From assembly GCA_037141195.1 (NCBI GenBank), contig JBAXCZ010000008.1:2525-66524 (forward strand): a stretch of 64,000 bases of DNA, written 5' to 3'. Of this stretch, positions 7,374 to 10,747 are shown one piece after another; positions within the stretch are counted from its first letter, which is position 1; each line of letters opens with the position of its first letter. The stretch is from Clostridia bacterium. Its GTDB lineage: Bacteria; Bacillota; TC1; JBAXCZ01. The notes below the pieces were generated by a model that was not told the DNA's origin, searched no databases, and saw only the letters and a list, made by a program, of their open reading frames with translations. The position numbers and the translations under genes are program-made.

Positions 7374-7691
7374 ATGGAATTATTATCAGGTTGGGGCGGT
7401 ACAGTATTGTACCTTGCTTTTTTCTTTGTACTCATCTATTTCTTAATGATTCGTCCACAAAAAAAACAACAGCAACAGCATAAATCCTTAGTAGAGTCTT
7501 TACAAACAGGGGATGAAGTTGTAACTGCCGGTGGTATTCACGGCTTGGTTGTGAAAAAGAAAGAAAAAACAGTTGTTATTTCTGTAGACAGAGATGTAAA
7601 CTTAGAGTTGGAATTAACTGCAGTTGCCCGTATCATTAAAGCAACTACAGCGATTGAAGAAGCAAAGACTGTTGAAAAAGAAGCAGAATAG
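7374..7691 (+). CDS. yajC: Preprotein translocase subunit YajC
   Basis: TM segment + YFLMIRPQKK and GDEVVTAGGIHG; queA-tgt-yajC-secDF synteny. Confidence 0.95.
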   Translation: MELLSGWGGTVLYLAFFFVLIYFLMIRPQKKQQQQHKSLVESLQTGDEVVTAGGIHGLVVKKKEKTVVISVDRDVNLELELTAVARIIKATTAIEEAKTVEKEAE

Positions 7692-7710
7692 TCAGCGTGA
7701 TTAAACAGAG

Positions 7711-7747
7711 AGGCTGTCTCAGCGCATTGTTTGAGATAGCCTTTTTT
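7711..7747 (+). terminator. Intrinsic terminator after yajC
   Basis: AGGCTGTCTCA...TGAGATAGCCT hairpin followed by T-run. Confidence 0.7.
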
Positions 7748-7884
7748 ATGAGTAAGAGTCTAGCGGTAATATGTCAAGTACCGATTTCGAATAAATTGAT
7801 CAGAAAAGCTTAAAAAAGCAAAAAAAATCTTACACCTAAATAAGCCTTTGAAAAACTGCAAATTTTCACAGGCGTTTATGGCAC

Positions 7885-9114
7885 CTACCTCGTAGGTGGA
7901 ATATATAAGCGATTGGTGTCGAGCATGGCATACACCAATCGAACTAGCTTTCTTGCAGTCAATGCGAGAGCACGTTTATGTTGATGCTTCGGTACTTCCT
8001 TAAACTTGGATTGATAAAAGCGTCTGAATTCGGTATCGTGCATGCGTACCTTATTCGCAGCTTCCAAGAAATAGTACTTTAAGTACTTGTTGCCCGAAAG
8101 AATCAACTTTGTATTGGAGGCTTCAAAGCTACCAGACTGGTATCTAGACCAAGTGATGCCTGCATATTTAGCAAGGGCAGCATGGTTGTTAAAGCGATGG
8201 ATATCAGCAATTTCAGCAAGGATACCGGCACTGTATACAGGACCGAATCCAGGGATACTCGATAGAATATCAGGAAATAATTGCATGTAAGAACTGATGG
8301 CTTTGTCTAAGTCTTTAATCTGTTTTTGCAACGATTTTATACCAACTAGCCTAACGGCAAGTAGTTGATTAAGGGAGTCGTTGACAGTTTGAGAAAGACG
8401 ATAAGAGCTTCTAGCAGCAGCTTTGAGTTCTGTGGCAATCTTCTGTGGATCAGTAAAACTGTTTTTGCTCTTTTGAGCAACAAAGTCAGCAAGATTTTCT
8501 AAAGGCATGTCATTTATATCATCAACAGAAAAGAATTCTGAAATGACAGCAATAGAAGTAGCTCCAAAGGTATCTGAAAAAATTTTGGAGGAATCCAAGG
8601 CAGAAAACTTATAGAATAATGTCTCTAAGAACCTTGTTTTTTCTCTACTAAGATTTTGAGCTACTTGAAATCTTGCTCTTGTAAGATTGCGAAGAGCAAT
8701 GTACTTTTCATCCAGATTTACTTCTTTAGCAATGCGACCAAAGCGAAGATAATCAGCAATGATGAGGGTGTCGATGTTATCGTTCTTGGGCAATTCAGGA
8801 TAGGAGTCCTTAAATTTACTAACCTGTTTTGCATTCAGGATATGAACATTAGCATTCCACTTTTTCAAGAAATCATCATTACGAAGAAAAACAGCCAGAT
8901 GATCAGCATAAATGGAAGTGGATTCCATACCGATGGTAACAGAGCTGAAGTCTGTATGTATAATAGTATCTTTTAGCTTTTCAAGAATTTTAACCGCTCC
9001 ATCATGATTGTTAGGAGCATTGAAAAGAGATAAAGTGTCACCGGTTGAATCAGTAAATCGGATGACGTTTGATTTTTTGCTAACGTCAATACCGACAAAG
9101 AGAGTGTTCGTCAT
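7885..9114 (-). CDS. IS110 family transposase/recombinase (RuvC-like DEDD + Tnp20 domains)
   Basis: VGIDVSK (D), GMESTSIY (E), KNDNID (D,D); SIPGFGPVYSAGILAEI; YQSG serine loop; ARKLVRLVYAML. Confidence 0.95.
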   Translation of the reverse strand: MTNTLFVGIDVSKKSNVIRFTDSTGDTLSLFNAPNNHDGAVKILEKLKDTIIHTDFSSVTIGMESTSIYADHLAVFLRNDDFLKKWNANVHILNAKQVSKFKDSYPELPKNDNIDTLIIADYLRFGRIAKEVNLDEKYIALRNLTRARFQVAQNLSREKTRFLETLFYKFSALDSSKIFSDTFGATSIAVISEFFSVDDINDMPLENLADFVAQKSKNSFTDPQKIATELKAAARSSYRLSQTVNDSLNQLLAVRLVGIKSLQKQIKDLDKAISSYMQLFPDILSSIPGFGPVYSAGILAEIADIHRFNNHAALAKYAGITWSRYQSGSFEASNTKLILSGNKYLKYYFLEAANKVRMHDTEFRRFYQSKFKEVPKHQHKRALALTARKLVRLVYAMLDTNRLYIPPTR

Positions 9115-9147
9115 AATATCACCTCACTTTCCGAATGATTTAAGAAA

Positions 9148-9476
9148 CCAATAATACAATGCCCATGGACCTGACGCAACGACACCCTCGCATATATGAA
9201 TAAGCTCCTGTGGAACATGCACGAACCCTCCCTGCAAAAAAGGGATTCCATTTTCAAGAGAAAACAGCTAGCGGTTAGAAGCAAACAATCAGGTATGGGG
9301 AACTGACTTTAGTAGAATATACCCTAGGGTAAAACAAGGAGGAGCAGAACATTCCTTAATGGTTTCTACCATAATTAAACCATAGACATTGTTATTGGTA
9401 TAGCAAAGAAACAATAAAAAAGGATAACAGATTGCAAGGATATTATCCTTTTTTTAGCTATATAATTTCCTTGCTA
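9148..9476 (-). ncRNA. Putative IS110 bridge RNA
   Basis: Lies just downstream of the junction promoter. Stems with G-U pairs on - strand (9476-9466/9411-9401; 9398-9380/9168-9148; 9292-9287/9175-9170). Loop segments match target (9337-9344) and donor (9268-9275, 9187-9194). Confidence 0.75.
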
Positions 9477-9502
9477 AAAACTATTATACGAGGAGGAGAC
9501 AA

Positions 9503-10747
9503 ATGAAAAAGTTAGATGGCATCAAGCTTGCCATAGCTTTAATTTTAATTGTAGCACTTGGTTTTGTGGCATTTCAGCCTTTAATCCAAAGGATTAGCCT
9601 CGGATTAGACTTACAAGGCGGAGTACATGTAGTGTTAAAAGCTTCAGCCACAGAGACTGCCAAAGTAAACACTGAAACTATGAAACAATTACAAGAGGTT
9701 ATGCGAACTCGCGTGGATCAGTTAGGTGTAAGTGAACCACTAATTCAGATTGAAGGTACAGATCGTTTAATTGTAGAATTAGCAGGAGTTCAGGATCCAG
9801 AAAAGGCTGTGGAAGTTATCGGTAAAACAGCCAAGCTCACTTTCGTGGATAGTACTGGTAAGGTAATCTTGTCAGGCACAAATCTGGCAGATGCTGCCGC
9901 CCGTATTGAGTCCAATGGCACTAATGTTGTAACCTTAAAATTTGACAAAGTGGGAACGGCCGCCTTCGCAGCAGCAACTGCCACCGCAGCAGCAGCAACA
10001 AAAGGCAGTCCTGAAAATAAAATTGCTATTATGTTGGATGATAAGGTTATCACTAATCCTCAAGTAAATACATCGATTCCAAATGGTGAAGCAGTAATTT
10101 CTGGTGGCTTTGCAACCTTTGATGAAGCAGCTAGTTTAGCAGCTTTACTTCGTGCAGGAGCATTGCCATTAAATACAGAAATTATTGAAAAAAGAACAGT
10201 AGGACCTACCTTAGGGTCAGATTCATTGACTAAGAGCTTATTTGCAACAGAACTTGCACTGCTTTTAATTGCAATTTTCATGATAATCATGTATCGCTTA
10301 CCGGGTATTATAGCTGTCTTCTCCCTAGTAGTATTTGGTGTAATTGTCCTAGGTATTTTAGTAGGCATTGGAGCAGTACTAACTTTACCAAGTATAGCTG
10401 GGATGCTGCTTACCGTAGGGATGGCAGCAGATGCCAATATTATTATTTATGAGCGGATTAAAGATGAGCTAAAAGCAGGAAAATCAGTTCAGGCTTCCGT
10501 AAAAAGTGGTTTCAAAAGAGCATTTACCACGGTTTTCGATTCAAACTTAACAACAGTTATTGCAGGAGTAGTACTTTTCTATTTAGGGTCAGGTAGTATT
10601 AAAGGTTTTGCCTTAACCTTAATGATTGGTATTGCTATCAATATGATTACAGCTCTTCTAATAACGCGCTATCTTTTGTATTTATCAGTACAGATACCGG
10701 CACTAAGAAAAGCATCCTTCTTTGGCGTAAAAGGAGGTAAAGCATAA
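9503..10747 (+). CDS. secD: Protein translocase subunit SecD
   Basis: LGLDLQGG, RVDQLGVSEP, LLRAGALP, VGPTLG, DANIIIYERIKDE and GFALTL. Confidence 0.96.
   Translation: MKKLDGIKLAIALILIVALGFVAFQPLIQRISLGLDLQGGVHVVLKASATETAKVNTETMKQLQEVMRTRVDQLGVSEPLIQIEGTDRLIVELAGVQDPEKAVEVIGKTAKLTFVDSTGKVILSGTNLADAAARIESNGTNVVTLKFDKVGTAAFAAATATAAAATKGSPENKIAIMLDDKVITNPQVNTSIPNGEAVISGGFATFDEAASLAALLRAGALPLNTEIIEKRTVGPTLGSDSLTKSLFATELALLLIAIFMIIMYRLPGIIAVFSLVVFGVIVLGILVGIGAVLTLPSIAGMLLTVGMAADANIIIYERIKDELKAGKSVQASVKSGFKRAFTTVFDSNLTTVIAGVVLFYLGSGSIKGFALTLMIGIAINMITALLITRYLLYLSVQIPALRKASFFGVKGGKA

What the first reader, a model, noticed from the sequence alone, without database searches (positions are those of the whole stretch)
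9148..9476. IS110 bridge RNA apparently programmed to target Shine-Dalgarno sequences
Seen: the ~360-nt region upstream of the transposase folds on the - strand, supported by G-U pairs. It has a 5' stem-loop and a large domain closed by 9398-9380/9168-9148. The first internal loop carries CUCCUCCU (9344-9337), identical to the target flank read on the - strand (AGGAGGAG, 9491-9498, the secD RBS), ending in the CT core. The second loop, closed by CCUGAU/GUCAGG, carries ACCGCUAG-CU (9275-9266), matching the element's own right end ACCGCTAGaCT (7767-7757). It also carries UAUGCGAG (9194-9187), complementary to the left-end junction CTCGTATA with one G-T wobble. Established: IS110 elements such as IS621 encode a bridge RNA with target- and donor-binding loops in this order. 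Inference: the target guide is an anti-SD-like sequence. If UAAAG (9311-9307) is the right target guide, the programmed site is TAAAGGAGGAG, a canonical Bacillota RBS, so this would be an RNA-guided recombinase aimed at translation start sites genome-wide. The right target guide matches this particular site only imperfectly.
Basis: partly seen in the sequence, partly recalled or inferred. Interest (0 to 1): 0.88.

Follow-up and report, generated by a model that had tools for sequence, protein, structure and literature searches.

The report
Insertion sequence that targets ribosome-binding sites
A mobile element of the IS110 family carries a guide RNA whose targeting segment resembles the ribosome's own recognition sequence, and it and its relatives sit just in front of genes' ribosome-binding sites.

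Summary
Window 7757-9492 (minus strand) is a 1.7-kb IS110-family element lying between yajC and secD, at the 5' edge of the secD Shine-Dalgarno (SD) sequence.

Its 376-nt left end has the layout of an IS621-type bridge RNA:
- target guides CUCCUCCU and CUAAAG;
- donor guides ACCGCUAG-CU and UAUGCGAG.

About 60 homologous copies were fetched from other genomes and metagenomes. They gave 43 distinct left flanks of at least 16 nt:
- 38 read AGGRG on the neighbouring gene's strand;
- 35 also have a start codon 10-14 nt on, always in the same orientation.

The variable guide positions match each copy's own flank (100 of 215 against 62.8 expected; 0 of 20000 shuffles reach this). Donor guides change together with the element's right end. 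Copies with identical guides sit at different genes' ribosome-binding sites.

One detail is not: the inner part of its closing helix loses to another pairing.

Expression and activity are inferred, not shown. The mechanism was published in 2024. Targeting of translation signals by the IS110 relatives IS900 and IS901 dates from 1997-2003. I found no paper linking the two. This is a new variant of a known kind.

The parts
7757..9492 (-). Whole IS110-family element, including the CT core copy at each end (9492-9491 and 7758-7757)
   Evidence: Homology to L005-L011 begins and ends here. The flanks rejoin to hairpin - short spacer - SD - ATG, the layout found in 6 related genomes.
7885..9114 (-). 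Recombinase/transposase gene, 409 aa (DEDD RuvC-like domain plus Tnp domain)
   Evidence: PF01548 6e-30 and PF02371 1e-21. Distant match to ISCro4 (9t56, 1e-10) and IS621 (8wt6, 1.6e-9) transposases.
9483..9490 (-). Right donor arm CGTATAAT at the start of the left end. It contains the -10 box TATAAT (9488-9483).
   Evidence: Conserved in nearly all left ends identified. With the right end it rebuilds TTGACA-17-TATAAT in 30 of 35 loci.
7772..7777 (-). -35 box TTGACA in the right end. It becomes functional only when the right and left ends are joined in a circle.
   Evidence: Direct reading. Counted across loci.
7759..7767 (-). Left donor arm ACCGCTAGA (right-end terminus)
   Evidence: Matches the left donor guide. 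Changes in step with it in L008/L016/L028, L026, L027, L048, L050 and L051.
9337..9346 (-). Left target guide (LTG) UGCUCCUCCU. 8 of its 10 nt, 9344-9337, equal the flank plus core.
   Evidence: Permutation tests.
9307..9312 (-). Right target guide (RTG) CUAAAG
   Evidence: Position -5 matches the flank in 22 of 33 pairs. L019 has GACAG against a flank reading TACAG, and L011 has GGAAAG in both. The window's own right flank fits only if one C is bulged.
9320..9331 (-). Distal hairpin of the target-binding loop (UACCC/GGGUA)
   Evidence: Helix 4. The pair at columns 177/188 reads AU 9, UA 7, CG 2.
9266..9275 (-). Left donor guide (LDG) ACCGCUAG-CU
9187..9194 (-). Right donor guide (RDG) UAUGCGAG
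   Evidence: Complementary to CTCGTATA with one G-T. The right donor arm hardly varies, so no covariation test was possible.
9285..9299 (-). 5' strand of the basal stem of the donor-binding loop. It pairs with 9177-9162.
   Evidence: Helix 5: 10 of 14 pairs change on both sides, 94.6% paired.
9162..9177 (-). 3' strand of the basal stem of the donor-binding loop
9412..9474 (-). 5' leader with alternative hairpins: GCAAGG/CCUUGC (9474-9469 with 9439-9434), and AAGGAUAA/UUAUCCUU (9450-9443 with 9427-9420) followed by a U tract
   Evidence: Helices 1 and 2 (95.8% and 89.9% paired, with double changes). Function unknown.
9491..9505 (+). secD Shine-Dalgarno sequence and start codon (AGGAGGAGACAAATG), left intact beside the element
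   Evidence: SecD domains.

Best explanation
This is an IS110-family insertion sequence that chooses its insertion site with a bridge RNA encoded in its left end. The target guide of that RNA is built around the complement of the Shine-Dalgarno (SD) sequence.

Proposed mechanism:
1. Excision joins the right and left ends through the CT core. That junction creates a consensus promoter, TTGACA-17-TATAAT.
2. The promoter drives the left-end RNA and the recombinase gene.
3. The donor loop of the RNA holds the circle junction. ACCGCUAG-CU matches the right-end terminus, and UAUGCGAG pairs with the left-end terminus.
4. The target loop pairs ..CUCCU with the DNA strand that carries AGGAG. This is the pairing that the 16S rRNA tail makes with mRNA.
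5. The target loop also pairs ..AAAG with CTTT on the other strand.
6. Recombination at the CT/AG core places the element at AAAG|GAGG. Its left end faces the gene, and the recombinase gene points away from it.
7. The core is present at both junctions, so the gene keeps a complete SD and start codon but is cut off from upstream transcription.

The invariant guide core aims the whole clade at ribosome-binding sites. The 3-5 variable guide positions bias each lineage toward particular ones.

Shown by sequence comparison: the boundaries, the insertion sites, the guide-flank and guide-end covariation, and conserved RNA helices.

Inferred from the IS621 family: that the RNA is made, that it binds the recombinase, and the chemistry of recombination.
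For: Family. Both IS110 Pfam domains are present.

Boundaries and CT core..

Junction promoter. 30 of 35 loci with both ends rebuild TTGACA-17-TATAAT. The other 5 differ by 1-3 bases at the same spacing.

Insertion sites. 43 distinct left flanks were counted:
- 38 read AGGRG on the gene strand;
- 35 also have ATG, GTG or TTG 10-14 nt on.
In the first 34 flanks, 28 had a start codon at offset 11-13. 26 of those 28 reading frames run 50 or more codons or run open to the end of the flank.

Background in the window's own genome. Only 34.3% of 5594 AGGRG sites have such a start codon, and 17.6% also have 50 open codons.

Guide-flank matching.
- The five distal positions of the left target guide match in 100 of 215 cases against 62.8 +/- 6.2, with 0 of 20000 shuffles reaching this.
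- Exact runs: L008 9 nt, L007 8, L018 8, L068 8, window 8.
- Where the site reads GGGGG instead of GGAGG (L052, L057, L072, L073), the guide reads CCCCC.
- Right target guide: 106 of 198 against 90.4 +/- 4.8, 25 of 20000 shuffles.

Donor covariation.
- ACCACTAG in both guide and end: L008, L016, L028.
- ACCGATAG in both: L026.
- CCGATTG in both: L027.
- ACCGCTGG in both: L048.
- ACCACTGG in both: L050.

Same guides at different genes. L008, L021, L028 and L031; L006 and L018.

RNA structure..

Geometry agrees with IS621 (passages of PMC11208160).

Pre-insertion state. 6 of 6 related genomes holding secD have yajC - hairpin - SD - secD uninterrupted.

A contig from another study. A 1746-nt contig covers exactly 7757-9498 and then stops. 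This is as expected if several copies there share the CTCCTC flank.
Against: No direct evidence of expression or activity.
- The only RNA trace is one 182-nt contig (9258-9439) in a metatranscriptome library, which may contain DNA.
- No circle junction or empty site was seen in the four runs laid.

The element is single-copy in this genome. Four TAAAGGAGGAG sites are unoccupied there.

The window's own right flank (CT|CTTAC) fits CUAAAG poorly unless a C is bulged.

8 of 43 left flanks are not SD plus start codon:
- 4 abut another IS;
- L026, L046 and L074 are SD-like without a start codon;
- L085 has no SD.

Donor guide and right end disagree at 1-2 positions in L010, L011, L024 and L025.

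The right donor arm hardly varies, so its guide is untested.

No convincing basal stem for the target loop was found. Only a GG/CC pairing is conserved.

The loci are related to one another, so the shuffle tests overstate independence.

The excess of true ribosome-binding sites over bare AGGAG motifs could come from selection against insertions inside genes rather than from recognition.
Confidence: 0.85

Rival explanations
1. The guide specifies only a short purine-rich word of about 7-9 nt around AAAG|GAGG. The element has no relation to translation signals as such. Copies are seen at real ribosome-binding sites because that is where the word is commonest and because insertions inside genes are lost by selection.
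For: Only CTC-CT-TT is nearly invariant across sites. Copies with the same guide tolerate mismatches at positions -7 to -10 (L008, L021, L028, L031). In the window's genome 31% of 458 AAAGGAG sites already meet the RBS test (a start codon at the right spacing and 100 open codons).
Against: 35 of 38 SD-like sites have a start codon at the right spacing, against 34.3% for the motif alone. That leaves a large gap for selection to close. Conservation of the CUCC guide core down to 42% protein identity suggests the choice is maintained. It recurs in a second lineage at 23% protein identity. This rival changes why the sites are ribosome-binding sites, not the mechanism.
Confidence: 0.3
2. CUCCUCCU is not a DNA guide. 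It is an internal anti-SD segment that masks the recombinase's own ribosome-binding site (GAGGUG near 9125) to control translation. On this reading its identity with the secD flank is coincidence.
For: The segment is complementary to SD-like sequences in general. The recombinase gene has an SD about 210 nt downstream on the same transcript.
Against: This does not explain why positions 5' of CUCC track each copy's flank (0 of 20000 shuffles). It does not explain the CCCCC guides at GGGGG sites. It does not explain the parallel behaviour of the right target guide and the donor guides. Neither RNAalifold nor the single-sequence fold pairs this segment with the recombinase SD.
Confidence: 0.03
3. 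The element is an inert relic in this genome. The guide-flank identity records an old insertion by a now inactive copy, so nothing is 'aimed' at present.
For: Single copy. Better-matching sites are unoccupied. No circle or empty-site joints in the 4 runs.
Against: The reading frame is intact at 409 aa. Both ends, the junction promoter and all four guides are intact. A 99%-identical unit-length contig occurs in a different study's metagenome. None of the other 14 genomes of the window's class carries the element, which points to recent acquisition rather than old decay.
Confidence: 0.15

Closest known systems
IS621 (E. coli) and its bridge RNA (Durrant et al. 2024, PMC11208160; structures 8wt6-8wt9)
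   Same: Recombinase with a DEDD domain plus a Tnp domain. CT core. Non-coding RNA upstream of the gene with a target loop and then a donor loop. Same strand rules for all four guides. The core is included in each pairing. The -35 box is supplied by the right end (passages read).
   Different: Only a distant sequence relative: 1.6e-9, C-terminal domain only, and 409 aa against 328. The left end is 376 nt, with an extra 5' leader and a long-range closing helix. The target is the SD sequence. That IS621 targets REP sequences is recalled, not read. The left donor arm has one nucleotide before the core with no counterpart in the guide.
IS900 / IS901 of Mycobacterium avium (IS110 family)
   Same: Family members reported to insert at translation initiation signals upstream of genes. 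[quoted passage not shown] IS900 is placed in the IS110 family in PMC7823733.
   Different: There the insertion lies between the SD and the start codon. Here it lies at the 5' edge of the SD, so the SD stays with the gene. A host-dependent 'hed' reading frame on the opposite strand was proposed for IS900; no such frame spans this element. I did not read the primary IS900 and IS901 papers, which are not in the library. No bridge-RNA explanation of their target was found.
CazIS110-1 of Caloranaerobacter azorensis (bioRxiv 10.1101/2025.10.25.684509)
   Same: An IS110 element of a Clostridia-type anaerobe. It has a roughly 170-nt bridge RNA with target and donor loops and is shown to be active (section 5 read).
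   Different: Its target sequence is not given in the text held. The terms 'ribosom', 'GGAG' and 'CTCC' occur 0 times. Its relation to this clade was not tested.
IS1111-group elements (IS4321/IS5075 and the like)
   Same: IS110-family members that target conserved sequences of other mobile elements (reference list of PMC11208160). The second element found here ('ISx') has its long non-coding region 3' of the gene and sits against the end of the first family.
   Different: The window's element has its RNA 5' of the gene, which is the IS110-group layout.

Membership tests
IS110 family (bridge-RNA recombinases, IS110 group) | Recombinase with an N-terminal DEDD RuvC-like domain and a C-terminal Tnp (IS116/IS110/IS902) domain | tested here: met
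   PF01548 104.5 bits (cut-off 29) and PF02371 77.5 bits (cut-off 21.3). GIDVSK, MESTS and YQSGS align with the same motifs of ISCro4. Which residues are catalytic is recalled, not tested.
IS110 family (bridge-RNA recombinases, IS110 group) | No terminal inverted repeats, and a short shared core at both junctions instead of a longer target duplication | tested here: met
   The ends CTCGTATAAT... and ...CCGCTAGACT are not inverted copies of each other. CT is at both junctions in all loci where the ends were found.
IS110 family (bridge-RNA recombinases, IS110 group) | A promoter assembled across the joined right and left ends | tested here: met
   TTGACA-17-TATAAT in 30 of 35 loci. The other 5 are near-consensus at the same spacing. 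By sequence only.
IS110 family (bridge-RNA recombinases, IS110 group) | Left-end RNA with a target loop (LTG 5', RTG 3') followed by a donor loop (LDG 5', RDG 3'). LTG/LDG equal the top strand and RTG/RDG are its reverse complement. The core is included. | tested here: met
   Order and strand rules hold. LTG, RTG and LDG covary with their DNA partners. The RDG could not be tested because its partner hardly varies.
IS110 family (bridge-RNA recombinases, IS110 group) | The RNA is expressed and bound by the recombinase, and recombination depends on it | not testable with these tools
   Only one RNA-library contig over 9258-9439. No Rfam family matched.
IS900/IS901-type targeting of translation signals | Insertion between the Shine-Dalgarno sequence and the start codon | tested here: not met
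   The junction lies 5' of GGAG, and the SD and its 7-nt spacer to ATG stay together. The outcome is alike (insertion at ribosome-binding sites in one orientation), but the position differs.

The most novel reading that the evidence does not exclude
A large clade of IS110 elements in Bacillota has fixed the core of its programmable target guide as an anti-Shine-Dalgarno mimic. The clade extends down to 42% protein identity. A second lineage, at 23% identity, does the same in the opposite gene orientation. On this reading the ribosome-binding site serves these elements as a universal landing pad that travels with them across hosts.

The SD is regenerated at the junction, so the site stays targetable. 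This produces stacks of elements at one ribosome-binding site. The second lineage (ISx) appears to carry guides for exactly the junction 'SD::left end of the first family', which would make it a mobile element aimed at another mobile element's insertion scar.
Probability: 0.35. Interest if true: 0.7.

Novelty: new variant of a known kind. Interest (0 to 1): 0.6.

Why it matters
It gives a base-pairing explanation for an old observation, that some IS110 relatives land at translation signals. It does so with natural covariation rather than one example.

It shows how a programmable recombinase can be kept on a target present in front of most genes of most bacteria. That fits the element's presence in a genome whose 14 sampled class relatives lack it.

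There are practical uses if the system proves active. A natural bridge recombinase that lands at AAAG|GAGG in a fixed orientation and leaves the SD intact would be a ready-made tool. It could uncouple genes from their promoters, or place cargo in front of them, across a Gram-positive genome. The variable guide positions show which bases can be retuned.

It also flags a cost to the host. Here secDF is separated from yajC by 1.7 kb of antisense element, and no outward promoter is predicted.

Tried and rejected
Searches that gave little.
- Rfam scan of 7500-9700 at E <= 1: only a chance snoRNA hit inside the coding region, and no bridge-RNA family.
- DNA search of the element in the own genome: one copy.
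- DNA search in 61 relatives: only fragments of 96 nt or less, in 3 other genomes.
- PLSDB plasmids, distant mode: only 4-17% of the query covered, all inside the coding region.
- Recombinase search in the window's class: 1 of 15 genomes, the window's own.
- Copies in five genomes that hold homologues: essentially one each.

Reads. All runs were held as contigs. No joint, circle or empty site was seen. Stretches without cover in X3, X5 and X11 are not evidence of anything. The RNA contigs do not show a start, an end or a strand.

Promoter scan. No promoter-like site faces secD inside the left end. The one plus-strand hit, 8936-8964, lies inside the coding region and was not pursued.

A basal stem for the target loop (GGAAU/GUUCC) is not conserved and was dropped.

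I first read the recurring left flank ..ACAGGAAG|CT (L005, L024, L059) as a terminator hairpin or a 95-nt miniature element. I rejected both once the flank proved to be the end of a second IS110-family element.

I counted L019 and L020 as exceptions until their left flank turned out to be a 102-nt internal duplication of their own left end. A normal CAT-N8-CCTC|CT site lies beyond it.

The host's 16S rRNA tail could not be read, because the assembly holds no SSU rRNA.

Literature. Searches found no paper linking bridge or seek RNAs with ribosome-binding sites. One search led to the IS900 citations. The CazIS110-1 preprint gives no target sequence. Supplementary files were not opened. The extended data and supplements of PMC11208160, which bin natural targets by guide, could already contain this target class.

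I did not use structure prediction, fold search, complex prediction, the atlas search or the representative search, because no open question needed them.

Rows dropped before the counts:
- L048: left-end terminus not identifiable.
- L030: same site as L008.
- L020: same flank as L019.
- L067: flank masked.
- All loci with under 16 nt of left flank or with no left end found. These include L009, L012-L015, L022, L023, L025, L029, L055, L056, L058, L060, L061, L063, L065, L070, L071, L082 and L083.

Full report
WHAT IS THERE

On the minus strand of the window an intact 409-aa reading frame (9114-7885) carries both Pfam domains of IS110-family recombinases. It is a distant relative of the structurally solved ISCro4 and IS621 enzymes.

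The neighbouring genes are tgt and yajC upstream and secD and secF downstream, all on the plus strand.

Alignment with seven full-length relatives from other genomes fixes the element's ends. Homology starts at CT|CGTATAATAG (9492) and stops at ..ACCGCTAGA|CT (7757), and the flanks are unrelated between loci. The only sequence shared by the two junctions is the dinucleotide CT, which is the core.

Joining the two flanks rebuilds this sequence: hairpin - TTTTTT - ATGAGTAAG - AGGAGGAGACAAATG. Six related genomes show the same arrangement uninterrupted: yajC, a hairpin with a T tract, a short spacer, an SD, then secD. So the element is an insertion at the 5' edge of the secD SD, and the SD and start codon are left intact.

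RELATIVES AND THEIR INSERTION SITES

Where the relatives came from:
- one scan of species-representative genomes gave 11 loci;
- one scan of metagenome contigs gave 17;
- a protein search of 401 genomes of the order that holds the L010 genome gave matches in 35;
- 15 further copies were cut out by coordinates.

They fall into two groups:
- a close clade at 69-93% protein identity, with outliers at 47-56%;
- a second clade at 42-45% identity. It has the same left-end start (CT|CGTATAAT) and a different right-end terminus (..ACCAGATTG|CT).

After removing duplicates and loci with too little flank, 43 distinct left flanks remained. Read on the strand opposite to the recombinase:
- 38 begin AG|GRG;
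- 35 also carry ATG, GTG or TTG 10-14 nt from the core, most often at offset 12.

In the first 34 flanks examined, 28 had such a start. 26 of those 28 frames run at least 50 codons or run open to the end of the available flank.

The orientation is always the same: the left end faces the gene's SD and the recombinase points away.

The right flanks begin with T in 36 of 46 cases and TT in most. The consensus site on the gene strand is therefore wAA-AG-GAGG-N7-ATG.

For comparison, in the window's own genome only 34.3% of 5594 AGGRG sites have a start codon at that spacing. Only 17.6% also have 50 open codons.

GUIDES

The published rule for IS621 has two parts. The left target guide equals the top-strand left target plus core. 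The right target guide is the reverse complement of core plus right target. The donor guides are analogous (passages of PMC11208160). The window's element obeys it.

Left target guide. UGCUCCUCCU (9346-9337) compares with the flank ..TCTCCTC-CT. Across homologues the guide core CUCC is nearly invariant. The bases 5' of it differ between copies and follow each copy's own flank. Exact matches run to 9 nt in L008 and to 8 nt in L007, L018, L068 and the window. Over the five distal positions, 100 of 215 match against 62.8 +/- 6.2 when guides are dealt out at random. No shuffle in 20000 reaches the observed value (the first set of 34 gave 77 of 170 against 49.5). The signal sits at positions -6 to -8 and -10, not at -9.

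The core itself can covary. Four copies at GGGGG sites carry CCCCC guides.

Right target guide. 106 of 198 positions match against 90.4 +/- 4.8, and 25 of 20000 shuffles reach this. Telling cases are GGAAAG in both guide and flank (L011) and GACAG against TACAG (L019).

Donor guides. The left donor guide follows the right-end terminus through changes in at least five separate variants. It is mismatched at one or two positions in L010, L011, L024 and L025. In all copies the DNA has one nucleotide next to the core that has no partner in the guide. The right donor guide is complementary to the left-end terminus with one G-T. That terminus hardly varies, so nothing can be said from covariation.

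Copies with identical guides sit in front of different genes. L008, L021, L028 and L031 share one guide pair, and L006 and L018 share another. So a given guide reaches several ribosome-binding sites and tolerates mismatches distal to CCTC-CT.

A 1746-nt contig from an unrelated study covers exactly 7757-9498 at 99% identity and then ends. This is what an assembler produces when several copies share only the six flank bases CTCCTC.

RNA STRUCTURE

The 349-nt RNA folds better than all 100 shuffles, with z = -4.16.

On 21 left ends, a model of 55 pairs is 93.4% paired against 83.8% when shuffled and 34-44% when slid. 30 pairs change on both sides.

Well supported helices:
- the distal hairpin between the two target guides;
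- the distal stems of the donor loop;
- two mutually exclusive hairpins in a 5' leader.

I found no conserved basal stem for the target loop.

HOW IT MOST LIKELY WORKS

The right end carries TTGACA 13 nt before the core. The left end carries TATAAT 2 nt after it. Only the joined ends therefore give TTGACA-17-TATAAT, which is conserved in 30 of 35 loci.

By analogy with IS621, the excised circle switches on the RNA and the recombinase. The donor loop holds the circle junction. The target loop pairs with an AAAG|GAGG site. Recombination then occurs at the core.

The guide pairs with the DNA strand that carries the SD, in the same register as the CCUCC core of the 16S rRNA tail pairs with mRNA. 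That motif is recalled, because the assembly has no 16S gene.

All of this beyond the sequence relations is inference. The only RNA trace is one contig in an RNA library.

The element is single-copy here, while better-matched sites are free. It was not found in the other 14 genomes of the window's class, which suggests recent arrival by transfer.

The insertion cuts secDF off from yajC, and no outward promoter is predicted in the left end. How secDF is expressed is open.

COMPARISON AND NOVELTY

The element passes every sequence-level test for an IS110-group bridge-RNA element. Expression and activity cannot be tested here.

Landing at translation signals is not new for the family. A passage in PMC2942039 cites IS900 and IS901 as inserting between SD and start codon. 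The title of Doran et al. 1997 says the same; I saw it only as a reference. The position differs here, with the SD kept on the gene's side.

In seven full-text searches I found no paper that connects a bridge-RNA guide with the SD. I could not open supplements, and the primary IS900 papers are not in the library.

I therefore call it a new variant of a known kind and put interest at 0.6. It is a clean natural demonstration with practical appeal, but it would not surprise a specialist in kind.

SIDE FINDING

In seven loci the left end does not touch a ribosome-binding site (L005, L024, L059, L078, L080, L081). It touches the end of a second IS110-family element, here called ISx, lying head to head with it. 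An eighth locus, L023, appears to carry a scar of this arrangement. ISx is 1827 nt with a 429-aa recombinase at 23% identity.

ISx itself borders an SD plus start codon on its far side in 6 of 7 copies examined.

Its long 3' non-coding region contains UUCCUCCA, a hairpin, then CAUACGAG. Read with the IS621 rules, these specify ..CCTC-CT-CGTAT... That is the junction between an SD and the left end of the first family.

All three copies in one genome have TATTATACGAG on that side, one of them without the first element. A copy in another genome does not (L092).

In L079 the reverse has happened: a copy of the first family sits at the ribosome-binding site of the ISx recombinase gene.

This suggests that regenerated SDs attract stacked insertions. 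The ISx sample is small and its guide regions showed no variation to test.

Noticed in passing
L086:705-2531 (minus strand); second copy in L087; third copy L094; related ends in L005, L024, L059, L078, L089, L092, L096-L099: A second IS110-family element ('ISx') lies head to head against the left end of the first family, between it and the ribosome-binding site. It is 1827 nt with a 429-aa recombinase at 23% identity to the window's, and its long non-coding region is 3' of the gene. Its far side is an SD plus ATG in 6 of 7 copies. Its 3' RNA has UUCCUCCA - hairpin - CAUACGAG, which would specify the junction SD::CGTAT of the first family.
   Followed up: partly
L079 (G126:C6, about 284728-286621): A copy of the 42-45% clade is inserted at the ribosome-binding site of the ISx recombinase gene itself. 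ISx nt 1-90 and 89-148 flank it.
   Followed up: partly
L019:627-730 and L020:4-107: These two copies carry a 102-nt internal duplication of the first part of their own left end, joined at ..CAATAC-CT-CGTATAAT. They have different right flanks, so the longer form seems to have moved as a unit.
   Followed up: partly
L023, about 380 nt upstream of its recombinase start codon (start of the left end): The first 10 nt of the left end are replaced by 15 nt identical to the ISx terminus (CTTTAAATCAAGTAG). This looks like a deletion scar of an ISx/IS stack.
   Followed up: partly
Left ends of L048, L053, L055, L058, L066: The 5' part of the left end is interrupted or replaced by a shared insert containing AGGAGGCGTAGCCGAC.GGAG followed by a GC-rich hairpin. 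Its nature is unknown.
   Followed up: no
window 9474-9412 (minus strand): The 5' leader has two mutually exclusive conserved hairpins. The second is followed by a U tract, like a terminator or attenuator placed between the junction promoter and the guide loops. In the window only, the palindrome AAGGATAATATCCTT followed by T7 on the plus strand would also look like a terminator facing secD.
   Followed up: partly
Right-end terminus, window 7767-7757 and all homologues: The left donor arm has one nucleotide next to the core with no counterpart in the left donor guide. That nucleotide is A or T in the close clade. The left target has no such extra base.
   Followed up: no
L052, L057, L072, L073: Copies inserted at GGGGG-type ribosome-binding sites carry CCCCC in the target guide. 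So even the SD core of the guide can be retuned.
   Followed up: partly
window 7757-9498 against run X4: A unit-length contig of 1746 nt with 16 differences, from a microbial-mat metagenome of another study, ends 6 nt into the CTCCTC flank. This suggests a multicopy state there.
   Followed up: no
Whole assembly G000: The assembly has no SSU rRNA gene. It belongs to a class with only 15 sampled genomes, and none of the other 14 has this element.
   Followed up: no
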